From Sphaerodactylus townsendi (lineage: Eukaryota), in contig NC_059427.1 in NCBI RefSeq assembly GCF_021028975.2, positions 5,022,001-5,086,000 on the forward strand: a stretch of 64,000 nucleotides of DNA, read 5' to 3'. Shown piece after piece: positions 8,212 through 57,410 of this stretch. Each line of letters begins with the position of its first letter. The first letter of the stretch is position 1. The notes under the pieces were generated by a model. That model searched no databases and was not told where the DNA came from. It worked only from the letters and a program-made list of their open reading frames with translations. Both the position numbers and the translations under genes were made by a program.

Positions 8212-9896
8212 CTACTGTTTTTGCCTAGCGTGAATGAGTGTATGTCTCATAAGGTTTGAGTGCTGAGTAAAGCAAGAGTCACATTCCTGGCATTTAAATG
8301 GCTTTTCCCCTGTGTGGATTAACTGATGTCTGAGAAGGTTTGAGTTGTGACTGAAGCAACTTCGGCACTCCAGGCATTGATATGGTTTCTTCTTGTTTTG
8401 AGTTTTTGGATTGTTTTCTGTCTGAGTAAAGCCCTTTTTACATTCCCCTGTCTGCATATTTTTATGTCTCTTAAGACTTATACTGTGACTAAAGGTTTTC
8501 CCACAATCCAGGCATTTAAAGGGTTTCACGTCTGTGTGGATTCTTTGATGGCTAATAAGCCGTTTGTTCAGAGTAAAGCTCCTTCCACATTCCAAGCATT
8601 TGTATGGTTTCTCCCCTGTGTGGAGTAACTGATGTATTATGAGATTTGCATTTCGTGTGAACTTCTTTCCACATTCTGAACAGTCATATAGTTTTTCCCC
8701 AGTGTGACTTCTCTGGTGGGCAGTAAGGCTTGAATTCTGAATAAAGCTCTTTCCACACTCTAAGCATTTATACGGTTTCTCACCTGTATGGGTTCTTTGA
8801 TGCATAATGAGATTTTTACTCTGCATAAAGCTCTTTCCACATTCTAAACATGTATATGGTTTTTCTCCTGTATGGGTTCTTTTATGTACAATGAGGGTTG
8901 TACTCCGCATAAAGCTCTTTCCACATTCTAAACATATATATGGTTTTTCACCAGTGTGGGTTCTTTGATGTATAAGGAGTGTTGTACTCAACATAAAAGT
9001 CTTCCCACATTCCAAACATTTATAGCGTTTTTCACCTGTGTGGGTTCTTTGACGTGCAGTGAGATTTGTGTTTTGCTGCAATCCCTTTCCAGACTCAAGG
9101 AAAGGAAATAGCTGTCCCTCCTCATGAATTCCTTGGTGTCTAATAAGACTTTCACTTTCAGCAAAGCCTTTTCCACACTCCAGGCATTTAAATGGTTTCT
9201 CCACTGTGTGGATCCTTTGATGAACAGTAAGGTTTGACTTCTTACTAAAGCTCTTTCCACACTCCAAACAATTATATGGCTGCTCTCCTGTGTGTATTGT
9301 CTGATGCAAAATGAGGTTTGTACTCTGCATGAACTTCTTTCCACATTCCAAACACTTATACCGTTTCTCTCCTGTATGGATTCTTTGATGCATAGTAAGG
9401 CTTGACTTCATACAAAAGTTTTTCCCACACTCCAAACATTTATATGGTTTTTCTCCAGTGTGAATTCTTTGATGTAAAATCAGATTTGTACTTTGCATGA
9501 ACTTTTTTCCACATTCAAAACATTTATATCTTTTCTCACCTGTGTGGGTTCTTTGATGAACAATAAGAGCTGAGCTATGGCAGAATCTCCTTCCACATTC
9601 CAAACATTTATATGGTTTCTCTCCTGTGTGTGTTTTCCAGTGCACTTTAAGAGTTGATGTACTAGCAAAGCTTTTCTCGCACATAGAACACTCAATCCTT
9701 CTCTTTCTTTCATATATTTTTTCTTGGTATTCAGCATTCTGAAAAGCGATGGATTTACCATTTTCTTGACTGATCTGTTTTTTCTCCTGCTTTTTGGGGA
9801 TATGATTTCCAAAGTTCTCATTCATTTCTAGGTACTTATCACTTTCCTCCCATACTTCAGGTTCTTCACACTCTTTTGCTACATTCCACATATCTC
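8212..9896 (-). CDS. Gene B exon 3: C2H2 zinc-finger array (~15 intact plus degenerate fingers)
   Basis: 559-aa ORF. Acceptor ATTTCAATAG|GA GAT ATG TGG (phase 1). Ends RQKQ*. Confidence 0.93.
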
Positions 9897-10247
9897 CTAT
9901 TGAAATAAATAGAATTCTGACATTAGCACAATTTTTAAAAATTCAACTTCTGAGGAGAATTACAGAACACAAGAGATGTATCTGTCAGGATAGCCCTTCA
10001 AAAGCTTCAGCGGGAGATGCTTCTGACAGAAATGAAGCTATGAACTAAACAATATCATCCTTGGGATAGTCACTAACTATCAATTCTTTTTCCAGCTCAG
10101 GATGGAAGACTTGTCACAATCTATAGCTGAAAACTAGTTGATTTTATTTCTTCTCGAGGGGGTGGGGGGGGGGTCCAGAAGTTGTGCTCTGCCCCAGTCA
10201 TTTCTGCAACAATCCTGCCAGCCCCTCTAATTTTGGCAGTCTATTAT

Positions 10248-10293
10248 TCTCTCTCTCTCTCTCTCTCTCTCTCTCTCTCTCTCTCTCTCTCTC
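10248..10293. repeat. (CT)n microsatellite
   Basis: Directly visible in the sequence. Confidence 0.95.
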
Positions 10294-55400: not shown

Positions 55401-55656
55401 ATTGCTTTCCTCTTGTCAACAGAGAAATAATTTCTAAATGGTAAATTATCTCAGGTAATTGATTTATAGATGACATTTATTTATTTATTTATTTATTTAT
55501 TTATTTGTTTGTTTGTTTGTTTCCTTTAAGGCAGGAACATTGCCCTGCCAAATTTTAGAAGGGATATTTCTCCCAAATAGATTCATTTTTTCATTTCATG
55601 ATCTGATGTTCTTTTTCCTCTTTGCACTGATGTTAAGATTTTCTTTATTTCAACAG

Positions 55657-57410
55657 GAGATATGTGGGACATAGCAGAAGAAAATGTAGCACATCAGTTA
55701 ATGGAGGAAAGTGATAAGAAACTGGACATGAAACAAAATATTCGAAATCAGAAAAAAAACATTACGGATAAAAGAAGCAATAAACCCATTGCTTATCAGA
55801 ACAGTGATTACCAAACAACAATATGCAAAGGGAAGGGAAGGATTCAATGCTCTTTCTGTGAGAAAAACTTTGCTAGTATATCAACCCTTAAAGTACATTG
55901 GAAAACACATACAGGGGAGAAACCATATGACTGCCTGCAGTGTGGAAAGAGATTTAGTCATCCTTCAACTCTTACTGTACATGAAAGAACTCACACAGGA
56001 GAGAAACGATATAAATGTTTGGATTGTGGAAAGAACTTTATGCTGAGTACCAACCTCATTTTGCATCAAAGAATCCACACAGGAGAAAAACCATATCAGT
56101 GCATGGAATGTGGAAAGAGCTTTAGCCTGAAGAAAAGCCTTACTCTTCATCAAAGAATCCACACAGGAGAAAAACCATATAAATGTTTGGAATGCGGAAA
56201 GAGTTTTAGTCAGAAGTCAAGTCTTAACATCCATCATGGAACACATACAGGAGAGAAAAGGTATAAATGCTTTGAATGTGGAAAAAAGTTCATACAGAGC
56301 ACAACCCTCATTTTGCATCAAAGAATTCATACAGGAGAAAGACCTTATAAATGTTTGGAATGTGGAAAAAGCTTTATTGTGAAGTCAAGCCTGACTCTTC
56401 ATCAAAGAATTCACACAGGAATAAAACCATTTAAATGTCTGGAGTGTGGAAAGACCTTTAATGAAAGTACACGTCTTCTTAGACATCAAAGAATTCATAT
56501 GAGGGAGCAATCGTTTCAATTTCTTGAGTCTGGAAAAGGCTTTAGGCGGAGTACAACTCTCACTGGTCATCAAAGAACCCATACAGGTGAAAAACGGTAC
56601 AAATGTTTGGAATGTGGGAAAAGCTTTAGGCTGAGTACAACACTCATTATTCATCAAAGAATTCACACAGGCGAAAAGCCATATAGGTGTTTGGAGTGTG
56701 GAAAAAGCTTCATGCGAAGTACAACCCTCATTGTACATAAAAGAACTCACTCAGGAGAAAAACCATATATTTGTTCAGAATGTGGAAAAAGTTTCATGCA
56801 GAGTGCAAACCTCATAATACATCAAAGAACACACACAGGTGAGAAACCATATAAATGCTTGGAGTGTGGAAGGAGTTTTATTCAGAATTCAAGCCTTACT
56901 GCCCATCAAAGAAGCCACACTGGGGAAAAACTATATGACTGTTCAGAATGTGGAAAGAAGTTCACACGGAATGCAAACCTTATAATACATCAAATACTGC
57001 ACACAGGGGAGAAACCATACAAATGCTTGGAATGTGGAAGGAGCTTTACTTTGAGCAAAAGACTTATTAACCATCAAAGAATCCATACAGATGTGAAACC
57101 ATTTAAATGCCTGGATTGTGGGAAAAGCTTCAGTCATAGCATAACTCTTAAGAGACACAAAAATATGCAGGCAGGGGAATGTAAAAAAGGTTTCAGTCAG
57201 ACACAAAGCAATCCAAAAACTCAAACCAAAAAGAAACCATATCAGTGCTTGGAGTGCCGAAGTTGCTTCAGTCACAACTCAAACCTTCTTAGACATCAAC
57301 TAATCCACACAGGGGAGAAACCATTTAAATGCCAGGAATGTGGATATGGCTTTAGCCAGCACTCAAACCTTATGAGACATACACTTATTCACACCAGGCA
57401 AAAACAATAG
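55657..57410 (+). CDS. Gene F exon 3: C2H2 zinc-finger array, closest paralog of B
   Basis: 582-aa ORF. Acceptor TTTCAACAG|GA GAT ATG TGG. Ends RQKQ*. Confidence 0.93.

What the first reader, a model, noticed from the sequence alone, without database searches (positions are those of the whole stretch)
8212..57410. Five-member, apparently KRAB-less and SCAN-less zinc-finger family with a fixed 3-exon plan and a conserved 37-39 aa acidic N-terminal peptide
Seen: B-F each have a non-coding exon 1, an exon 2 with an ATG and 118 coding nt (112 in F), and one finger exon, all with matching phase-1 junctions. In B an in-frame TGA sits two codons before the ATG (GT GAA TGA ACC ATG), so no upstream coding exon can be read through. 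No VTFEDVAV/EEW-type KRAB-A or SCAN exon was seen in any intron. Known: clustered tetrapod C2H2 arrays normally carry KRAB and/or SCAN. Inference: exon 2 (consensus MTxxKExNFxQEGPEPRExLxxSPGxLPKDIFFQxxxDE) resembles the linker that follows KRAB in reptile ZNFs. An ancestor may have lost its effector domain, re-used the linker exon as the start exon and then amplified. The products could be competitor/anti-repressors, or the conserved KDIFFQ motif could be an undescribed effector motif.
Basis: partly seen in the sequence, partly recalled or inferred. Interest (0 to 1): 0.75.

Follow-up and report, generated by a model that had tools for sequence, protein, structure and literature searches.

The report
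Gecko zinc-finger family lacking silencing domain
Five neighbouring gecko zinc-finger genes have no KRAB or SCAN silencing domain anywhere in the 64 kb window, and their shared short front peptide changes almost as freely as unselected DNA, so it likely just supplies the start codon while the conserved fingers likely do the work by occupying DNA.

Summary
The anatomy is real. Five paralogs (B-F) have a short ATG exon (118 or 112 coding nt) and a finger exon. Squamate-trained KRAB and SCAN profiles find nothing in six frames (best 7 bits; true KRABs 23-99). D's product is identical to a RefSeq Sphaerodactylus townsendi protein that starts at the same ATG. A Gekko kuhli gene model holds four copies of the same peptide, so the family is likely shared across gecko families.

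The novel part is not supported. Exon-2 dN/dS is 0.73-0.85 (not separable from 1; 0.3 rejected), like the spacer (0.9) and unlike the fingers (0.2-0.27). Its invariant residues match neutral expectation. It does not match post-KRAB linkers; the start of exon 3 does, weakly.

What is conserved is the ATG, the open frame, the terminal fingers, and a 42-nt non-coding element before each exon-1 donor. D is frameshifted as assembled, but its branch has dN/dS 0.03, so this is likely assembly error or very recent damage.

Splicing and exon 1 remain untested, because no RNA reads were laid. Verdict: a lineage-specific, effector-less offshoot of squamate KRAB/SCAN zinc-finger genes, of modest interest.

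The parts
8212..9896 (-). Gene B exon 3: spacer plus 15 C2H2 fingers, to the stop codon (predicted 600-aa protein with exon 2)
10673..10801 (-). Gene B exon 2: ATG at 10790, 118 coding nt, in-frame TGA two codons upstream
13192..13340 (-). Gene B putative exon 1 / promoter block: conserved 42-nt element at 13299-13340, GT donor after 13192
   Evidence: transcript use untested
17729..19230 (-). Gene C exon 3: spacer plus 13 fingers (predicted 539 aa)
21703..21831 (-). Gene C exon 2: ATG at 21820, 118 coding nt
24546..24695 (-). Gene C putative exon 1 / promoter block with the conserved 42-nt element
28875..30242 (-). Gene D exon 3: finger array with about four single-base frameshifts as assembled; C-terminal block under strong purifying selection on D's own branch (dN/dS 0.03)
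34061..34189 (-). Gene D exon 2: ATG at 34178, 118 coding nt; same start as RefSeq XP_048345524.1
38818..38967 (-). Gene D putative exon 1 / promoter block with the conserved 42-nt element
43138..44570 (-). Gene E exon 3: spacer plus 13 fingers (predicted 516 aa with the acceptor at 44570)
45395..45525 (-). Gene E exon 2: ATG at 45512, 118 coding nt; acceptor 2 nt out of register, so upstream ATGs are in frame
47874..48050 (-). Gene E putative exon 1 / promoter block; head-to-head with F, 2.8 kb apart
50869..51025 (+). Gene F putative exon 1 / promoter block with the conserved 42-nt element
52323..52442 (+). Gene F exon 2: first ATG at 52331, 112 coding nt
55657..57410 (+). Gene F exon 3: spacer plus 16 fingers (predicted about 620 aa)

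Best explanation
B-F are five tandem paralogous C2H2 zinc-finger genes with no KRAB or SCAN exon in the window, likely a gecko-lineage offshoot of squamate KRAB/SCAN zinc-finger genes, in which exon 2 likely serves only to supply the start codon and a loosely constrained spacer while the conserved fingers would act by occupying DNA rather than by recruiting TRIM28. SHOWN: no KRAB or SCAN; ATG and open frame kept; near-neutral amino-acid change in exon 2 and the spacer; purifying selection on the first finger and the C-terminal fingers, including the DNA-contact positions; a strongly conserved 42-nt non-coding element at each 5' end. INFERRED: an ancestor lost its effector exons and kept the finger exon with its post-KRAB-type spacer; it duplicated before the Sphaerodactylus and Gekko lineages split; the paralogs are co-regulated from a shared non-CpG promoter or leader element; translation starts at the exon-2 ATG after leaky scanning past a weak upstream ATG; the proteins bind a shared, slowly changing core site through the terminal fingers and paralog-specific flanks through the variable middle fingers, and act by steric occupancy or finger-mediated partner binding without KRAB-type heterochromatin.
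For: No KRAB or SCAN in six frames. The ATG is present in 5 of 5 window copies and 4 of 4 Gekko copies, with a purine at -3 in the five window copies; neutral P of keeping it in five is about 0.05, and of no stop in exon 2 is 0.03-0.07. RefSeq D starts at that ATG. Spliced leaders have an in-frame stop upstream in B, D and F (3 of 5), and the upstream junction phase differs in E, so nothing selects for read-through. dN/dS by maximum likelihood: exon 2 0.73-0.85, spacer 0.87-0.95, C-terminal finger block 0.21-0.27 (p 7e-19 against 1), first finger 0.27 (p 3e-8), contact positions 0.38 (p 5e-4); a counting method agrees. For exon 2, omega 0.5 is rejected (p 0.02-0.03) and 0.3 is rejected (p about 1e-6). 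The exon-3 spacer matches squamate KRAB/SCAN proteins in 3 of 37. The 42-nt element has 32 of 41 columns invariant against 15 expected (0 of 5000 simulations; window chosen after seeing the alignment), and all 5 AAGGGTTAA 9-mers in the window lie in it (0.6 expected). E and F are head-to-head with 2.8 kb between them, which leaves little room for upstream exons. Gekko units group with different window genes (C with unit 4, 90% ultrafast bootstrap).
Against: Exon 2 is not fully free. The shared-tree omega of 0.73 is borderline against 1 (p 0.06). 55 of 111 nucleotide columns are invariant against 41 expected (P 0.004, start codon included). 14 of 39 residues are kept in at least 8 of 9 copies, against 9 of 60 columns in the spacer alignment, which has ragged ends. 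Identity to Gekko is 57% against 50% for the spacer. Only 38 codons in 5 paralogs were tested, so a 4-6-residue motif could be missed. No transcript evidence was obtained, so the junctions and the identity of exon 1 are predictions; exon 1 has pyrimidine-plus-AG stretches that could make it an internal exon. C's leader is open in frame. The mode of action (occupancy) has no direct evidence. The Gekko evidence is one gene model labelled 'UNVERIFIED_CONTAM: hypothetical protein', whose DNA I could not see.
Confidence: 0.58

Rival explanations
1. Exon 2 encodes a gecko-specific effector or protein-binding module, analogous to the fish FiNZ domain, with a short motif (SPxxLPxDxFFQ, or a SUMO-type hydrophobic-K-x-E site) that recruits a co-regulator in place of KRAB.
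For: Same gene plan as FiNZ-ZNFs: a short acidic N-terminal exon upstream of a finger exon (PMC10547256 passages). The exon is kept at near-constant length in 9 of 9 copies in two gecko genera. S23, P24 and Q34 are invariant, and L27, P28, D30, F32, F33 are kept in at least 8 of 9. Block omega is 0.67 and there is an excess of invariant nucleotides.
Against: Omega is not separable from 1 (exon p 0.06-0.6; block p 0.10-0.9), and invariant residues are at the neutral expectation. B has lost both phenylalanines. The hydrophobic-K-x-E site is present in only 4 of 9 copies. The fold prediction is low confidence (pLDDT 61, pTM 0.19; five-sequence alignment, weak evidence). FiNZ is described as highly conserved over hundreds of genes; this peptide was found only in this cluster and one Gekko model.
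Confidence: 0.15
2. The genes are ordinary KRAB or SCAN zinc-finger genes whose effector exon lies outside the window or in the gap and is spliced to exon 2 or exon 3.
For: All exon-3 acceptors take a phase-1 donor, as a KRAB-type exon would give (the KRAB exon phase is recalled). 34 of 37 proteins found with the finger block carry KRAB and/or SCAN. A 161-N gap lies in D intron 1. No transcript data were obtained.
Against: Such an exon would lie 16-50 kb or more away and skip neighbouring paralogs or cross a gene on the other strand. There are in-frame stops before the ATG in B, D and F. RefSeq D starts at the exon-2 ATG. The Gekko model has no KRAB or SCAN among its four units. The gap abuts a repeat and concerns D only.
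Confidence: 0.08
3. The proteins are dedicated anti-repressors that compete with KRAB-bearing paralogs for the same DNA sites.
For: They have no effector domain, and the contact residues are conserved (omega 0.38). Competition by effector-less finger proteins is a general idea recalled from the field, not tested here.
Against: No KRAB-bearing protein with the same finger block was found; the 37 hits are generic at 36-49% identity (word-indexed search, so weak). The genome could not be searched.
Confidence: 0.11
4. The finger arrays bind mainly RNA or protein (for example as germ-line or early-embryo factors), and DNA binding is secondary.
For: None of the five 5' ends lies in a CpG island, which suggests restricted expression. 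The arrays contain degenerate fingers and an atypical conserved first finger.
Against: Canonical TGEKP linkers and selection on the base-contact positions fit DNA binding. No expression data.
Confidence: 0.08

Closest known systems
Squamate KRAB-, SCAN- and SCAN-KRAB zinc-finger genes (Pfam PF01352, PF02023)
   Same: Tandem cluster; one exon holding a spacer and a TGEKP-linked C2H2 array; the exon-3 spacer matches that of Hemicordylus and Podarcis proteins
   Different: No KRAB or SCAN in the window; translation is predicted to start in a short dedicated exon; contact residues of the terminal fingers are conserved among paralogs
'ZNF-only' polydactyl zinc-finger genes of tetrapods (PMC3971581, Table 1: 723 models in Anolis, 212 in human)
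   Same: Many C2H2 fingers with no KRAB, SCAN or BTB
   Different: In that paper most human ZNF-only genes are ancient and deeply conserved; this is a tandem, apparently gecko-restricted expansion with a fixed gene plan and a shared 5' element
Cyprinid FiNZ-ZNF genes (PMC10547256)
   Same: A short acidic N-terminal peptide on its own exon upstream of a finger exon; lineage-restricted; no Pfam match
   Different: FiNZ is 28 aa and described as highly conserved across about 700 genes; here 37-39 aa, 5 genes, near-neutral omega. No sequence comparison with FiNZ was possible
Non-TRIM28 SCAN zinc-finger proteins that anchor nucleosomes (bioRxiv 10.1101/2025.03.03.638093)
   Same: Precedent that poly-finger proteins can keep DNA inaccessible without H3K9me3, which is the proposed mode of action here
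   Different: Those carry SCAN; these do not, and their activity is untested

Membership tests
KRAB zinc-finger genes | KRAB-A exon upstream of the finger exon | tested here: not met
   Profile from 24 squamate KRAB domains: best 7.2 bits in six frames of the window, against 23-99 bits for 40 domains in 31 of 40 proteins. The 161-N gap and DNA beyond the window were not scanned
KRAB zinc-finger genes | Tandem C2H2 array with TGEKP linkers in one 3' exon | tested here: met
   13-16 fingers in B, C, E and F
KRAB zinc-finger genes | TRIM28 binding and H3K9me3 deposition | not testable with these tools
   Needs co-IP or tethering
SCAN zinc-finger genes | SCAN domain exon | tested here: not met
   Profile from 23 squamate SCAN domains: best 6.6 bits in the window, against 127 or more for 34 real domains
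ZNF-only polydactyl genes | Many C2H2 fingers and no recognised effector domain | tested here: met
   KRAB and SCAN were scanned in six frames; BTB was not scanned separately beyond Pfam on the exon-2 and spacer peptides
ZNF-only polydactyl genes | Transcript lacks an effector exon | tested here: inconclusive
   RefSeq model of D starts at exon 2; no RNA reads were laid
FiNZ-like lineage-specific N-terminal domain | Short acidic peptide on its own exon before the finger exon | tested here: met
   (B nearly neutral in charge)
FiNZ-like lineage-specific N-terminal domain | Strong amino-acid conservation across members | tested here: not met
   Omega 0.73-0.85; 0.3 rejected at p about 1e-6; invariant residues at neutral expectation
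FiNZ-like lineage-specific N-terminal domain | Sequence homology to FiNZ | not tested
   No FiNZ sequence was fetched
   0 of 37 proteins and 0 of 29 SCAN-to-KRAB linkers match; hhalign probability 0.05-0.2%. The sample is small and fast-evolving linkers lose signal; one Hemicordylus segment (P0032) looks similar by eye only

The most novel reading that the evidence does not exclude
Geckos replaced KRAB with their own short N-terminal module. The exon-2 peptide, kept in two gecko families, carries a short linear motif (SPxxLPxDxFFQ) that recruits a co-regulator, and the family is switched on together by a conserved 42-nt element. That would be a tetrapod parallel to the fish FiNZ domain, arising inside a lineage that already has KRAB and SCAN.
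Probability: 0.15. Interest if true: 0.72.

Novelty: new variant of a known kind. Interest (0 to 1): 0.36.

Why it matters
Lizard genomes hold many zinc-finger models without KRAB or SCAN (723 of 1204 in the Anolis draft, PMC3971581), and it has been unclear how many are real genes rather than assembly fragments. This cluster is a clean case of real, selected, effector-less genes that likely persisted across gecko families, with conserved DNA-contact residues and a shared conserved 5' element. It offers a small natural test of what poly-finger proteins do after losing their silencing domain. It would matter much more if the exon-2 peptide proved to be an effector, but its near-neutral evolution argues against that.

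Tried and rejected
RNA evidence: no RNA holder listed among 8 runs for window 9700-13400 (no evidence either way). No whole genome is held, so family size and KRAB-bearing paralogs elsewhere could not be searched.

Protein searches: the F spacer as a single query gave 0 hits among 2 candidates. The exon-2 profile gave 1 hit among 627 candidates and 3 among 1.84 billion representatives, of which P0040 (a repeat protein, E 1e-4) was dropped as chance. Pfam gave 0 families for 5 of 5 exon-2 peptides. ESM Atlas gave an unnamed chordate cluster at 0.92 and a KRAB-bearing cluster at 0.86 (lead only) for residues 1-110 of D, and nothing for the Gekko unit.

Origins of exon 2 considered and not supported: a remnant of the SCAN start (QExxxPRE look-alike, 2.6 bits at best); an internal duplicate of the exon-3 spacer (hhalign 0.19%); a SCAN-to-KRAB linker (3 bits).

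CpG islands as the true promoters: rejected. The three CpG-rich patches lie away from the five 5' ends and look like transposon insertions. D as an old pseudogene: rejected (branch omega 0.03, p 2e-6 against 1). The fold of the exon-2 peptide was uninformative.

A recalled link between AAGGGTTAA and the ZNF652 binding site was not confirmed by the listing. Earlier-findings look-ups returned nothing. Paper searches (listings and abstract starts only) showed no paper on this gecko subfamily; the library lacks most subscription journals. The Xenopus FAX/FAR comparison is recalled only, and one search found no usable paper.
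Full report
WHAT IS IN THE SEQUENCE. Six-frame translation shows six finger-rich exons: A (371-1513, a different subfamily whose upstream exons are off-window) and the five named B-F. Each of B-F has, 0.8-3.8 kb upstream of the finger exon, a 120-131-nt exon with AG and GT ends, an ATG 8-13 nt inside it, and 118 coding nt (112 in F), ending in phase 1. 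A further 1.3-4.6 kb upstream, each has a homologous block about 150-180 nt long that begins with AAGGGTTAA and ends in a GT donor. The predicted proteins are B 600 aa with 15 fingers, C 539 with 13, E 516 with 13, and F about 620 with 16. B-E lie on the minus strand; E and F are head-to-head, 2.8 kb apart. B's in-frame TGA is there.

WHOSE GENES. The exon-2 profile retrieved a RefSeq protein of Sphaerodactylus townsendi (XP_048345524.1) that matches my D model apart from the acceptor choice and starts at the same ATG. Its name, 'zinc finger and SCAN domain-containing protein 30-like', is not backed by a SCAN hit in Pfam. HMMER over 1.84 billion representatives added one real relative, a Gekko kuhli model (KAL8213420.1, labelled UNVERIFIED_CONTAM hypothetical) with four tandem units of exon-2 peptide plus exon-3 spacer and no fingers. 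I read it as a gene predictor's stitch of four neighbouring paralogs (inference; a true four-repeat protein is not excluded). Window-to-Gekko identity (57%) is as high as identity within the window (52%), and unit 4 groups with C (90% ultrafast bootstrap) while units 1-3 fall with D and E (73%). So the duplications likely predate the split of the two gecko families (Cretaceous, recalled).

NO KRAB, NO SCAN. I took 37 zinc-finger proteins, mostly squamate, located domains with Pfam in 24 of them and built profiles from 24 KRAB and 23 SCAN domains. They score real domains at 23-99 bits (40 KRABs, 16 of them outside the training set) and 127 or more (34 SCANs). On 3204 stop-free segments and on read-through frames of the window, the best scores are 7.2 and 6.6 bits. 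The 161-N gap in D intron 1 and DNA beyond the window are unscanned. The spliced leader has an in-frame stop in B, D and F, is open without an ATG in C, and has in-frame upstream ATGs in E.

ORIGIN. A profile of the exon-3 spacer hits 3 of the 37 proteins (16-22 bits, iE 4e-7 to 2e-5 in a 40-protein set) and a fourth weakly. In the Podarcis protein P0007 the match starts 3 residues after the KRAB box. The finger exon therefore likely descends from KRAB/SCAN stock.

IS THE PEPTIDE SELECTED? Codon models on the five paralogs give omega 0.79 (own tree) or 0.73 (shared tree) for 38 exon-2 codons, and 0.85 or 0.79 without D. The spacer gives 0.87-0.95 and the C-terminal finger block 0.21-0.27. Omega 1 is not rejected for exon 2 (p 0.06-0.6); 0.5 and 0.3 are rejected. 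The SP..FFQ block gives 0.67 (p 0.10-0.14 against 1) on the shared tree and 0.9-1.5 alone. A counting method gives 0.76-0.94 (95% intervals 0.48-1.24 and 0.63-1.50). Invariant residues (5-6) equal the neutral expectation (4.7-5.2). Against a purely neutral reading: 55 of 111 nucleotide columns are invariant against 41 expected (P 0.004, approximate tree, ATG included), and 14 of 39 residues are kept in at least 8 of 9 copies. The fair reading is weak constraint plus selection to keep the ATG and the frame, far from domain-like conservation. A very short motif cannot be excluded with 38 codons.

WHAT IS CONSERVED. The atypical first finger (omega 0.27), the C-terminal fingers (scaffold 0.21; 16 contact positions 0.38, p 5e-4), and the last two fingerprints, nearly the same in B, C, E and F, while the middle fingers differ in number and identity. 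The most conserved short stretch outside the fingers is non-coding: 32 of 41 columns are invariant in the element that opens the exon-1 block, against 15 expected, and the 9-mer occurs five times in the window, once at each gene. None of the five 5' ends is a CpG island. D's own branch has omega 0.03 in the C-terminal block (p 2e-6 against 1), so its roughly four single-base frameshifts, some in short homopolymers, are very recent or assembly errors. One lost zinc ligand in D's second finger points the other way. A preprint on this species' genome describes nanopore gap-filling with polishing (10.1101/2021.08.13.456260, passages); I did not establish that the window is that assembly.

MECHANISM. 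Most likely (0.58), exon 2 supplies the start and a flexible spacer, the proteins bind DNA through conserved terminal fingers, and they act by occupancy or through the fingers without TRIM28. The anatomy and selection pattern are shown; splicing, expression, binding and mode of action are inferred. Rivals are an effector motif (0.15), dedicated competition with KRAB paralogs (0.11), a distant KRAB/SCAN exon (0.08), and RNA or protein binding (0.08).

KNOWN CONTEXT. PMC3971581 (passages and Table 1) lists 723 ZNF-only, 122 KRAB, 89 SCAN, 240 SCAN-KRAB and 30 BTB models in the Anolis draft, so missing effectors are not rare in lizards, though fragments inflate the count. PMC10547256 (passages) describes FiNZ, the nearest architectural parallel. 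PMC4592553 (passages) notes that TRIM28 recruitment by lizard KRABs is itself unproven. 10.1101/2025.03.03.638093 (passages) shows non-TRIM28 finger proteins closing chromatin. No supplements were read. Searches (listings only) showed no description of this subfamily.

VERDICT. A real, apparently undescribed gecko subfamily of effector-less zinc-finger genes: a new variant of a known kind. The proposed new effector motif is not supported by its evolution. Interest 0.36.

Noticed in passing
window 13299-13340, 24654-24695, 38926-38967, 48009-48050 (-); 50869-50910 (+): A 42-nt non-coding element about 150-180 nt upstream of each exon-1 donor is far more conserved than synonymous sites (32 of 41 columns invariant against 15 expected); all five AAGGGTTAA 9-mers of the window are in it. 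Likely a shared promoter or leader element; the binding factor is unknown.
   Followed up: partly
26 nt before each exon-1 donor (13192, 24546, 38818, 47874, 51025): An ATG in weak context is present in 5 of 5 copies. If spliced as predicted, it opens an 8-9-codon upstream ORF that stops at the start of exon 2 in B, C, D and F, but runs in frame into the main ORF in E (13 extra residues).
   Followed up: partly
window 6751-7350, 30601-31367, 62551-63300: The three CpG-rich patches share short terminal sequences, and two of them begin after the same flanking repeat sequence; the one at 30839-31367 has near-inverted ends. They look like young non-autonomous DNA transposons with a preferred target (Harbinger-like in a CR1-like repeat; names recalled), not gene promoters.
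   Followed up: partly
window 28230-28390 (-): An isolated, decayed piece of about two fingers, 70-80% identical to the family's finger exons, between D and C: perhaps the remnant of a sixth paralog or a partial duplication.
   Followed up: partly
window 28875-30242 (-): Gene D has about four single-base frameshifts as assembled yet dN/dS 0.03 on its own branch; the RefSeq 164-aa model may rest on assembly errors, and its SCAN-containing name has no SCAN domain behind it.
   Followed up: partly
P0039 (Gekko kuhli KAL8213420.1): A 400-aa model with four tandem units of exon-2 peptide plus spacer and no fingers. The unit order (three D/E-like, then C-like) matches the window's minus-strand order; likely stitched paralogs.
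   Followed up: partly
window 371-1513 (+): Gene A finger exon (11 fingers) belongs to another subfamily, with a different spacer; its upstream exons lie outside the window.
   Followed up: no
finger exons of B, C, E and F: Each array keeps, at the same places, a degenerate mid-array finger and a long non-canonical linker before the last two fingers, while the number of middle fingers varies.
   Followed up: no
window 3158, 12600, 15720, 23660, 34481, 37650, 40760, 46500, 59850, 62130: About ten copies of a 250-300-nt interspersed repeat at 70-90% identity; one abuts the 161-N gap.
   Followed up: no
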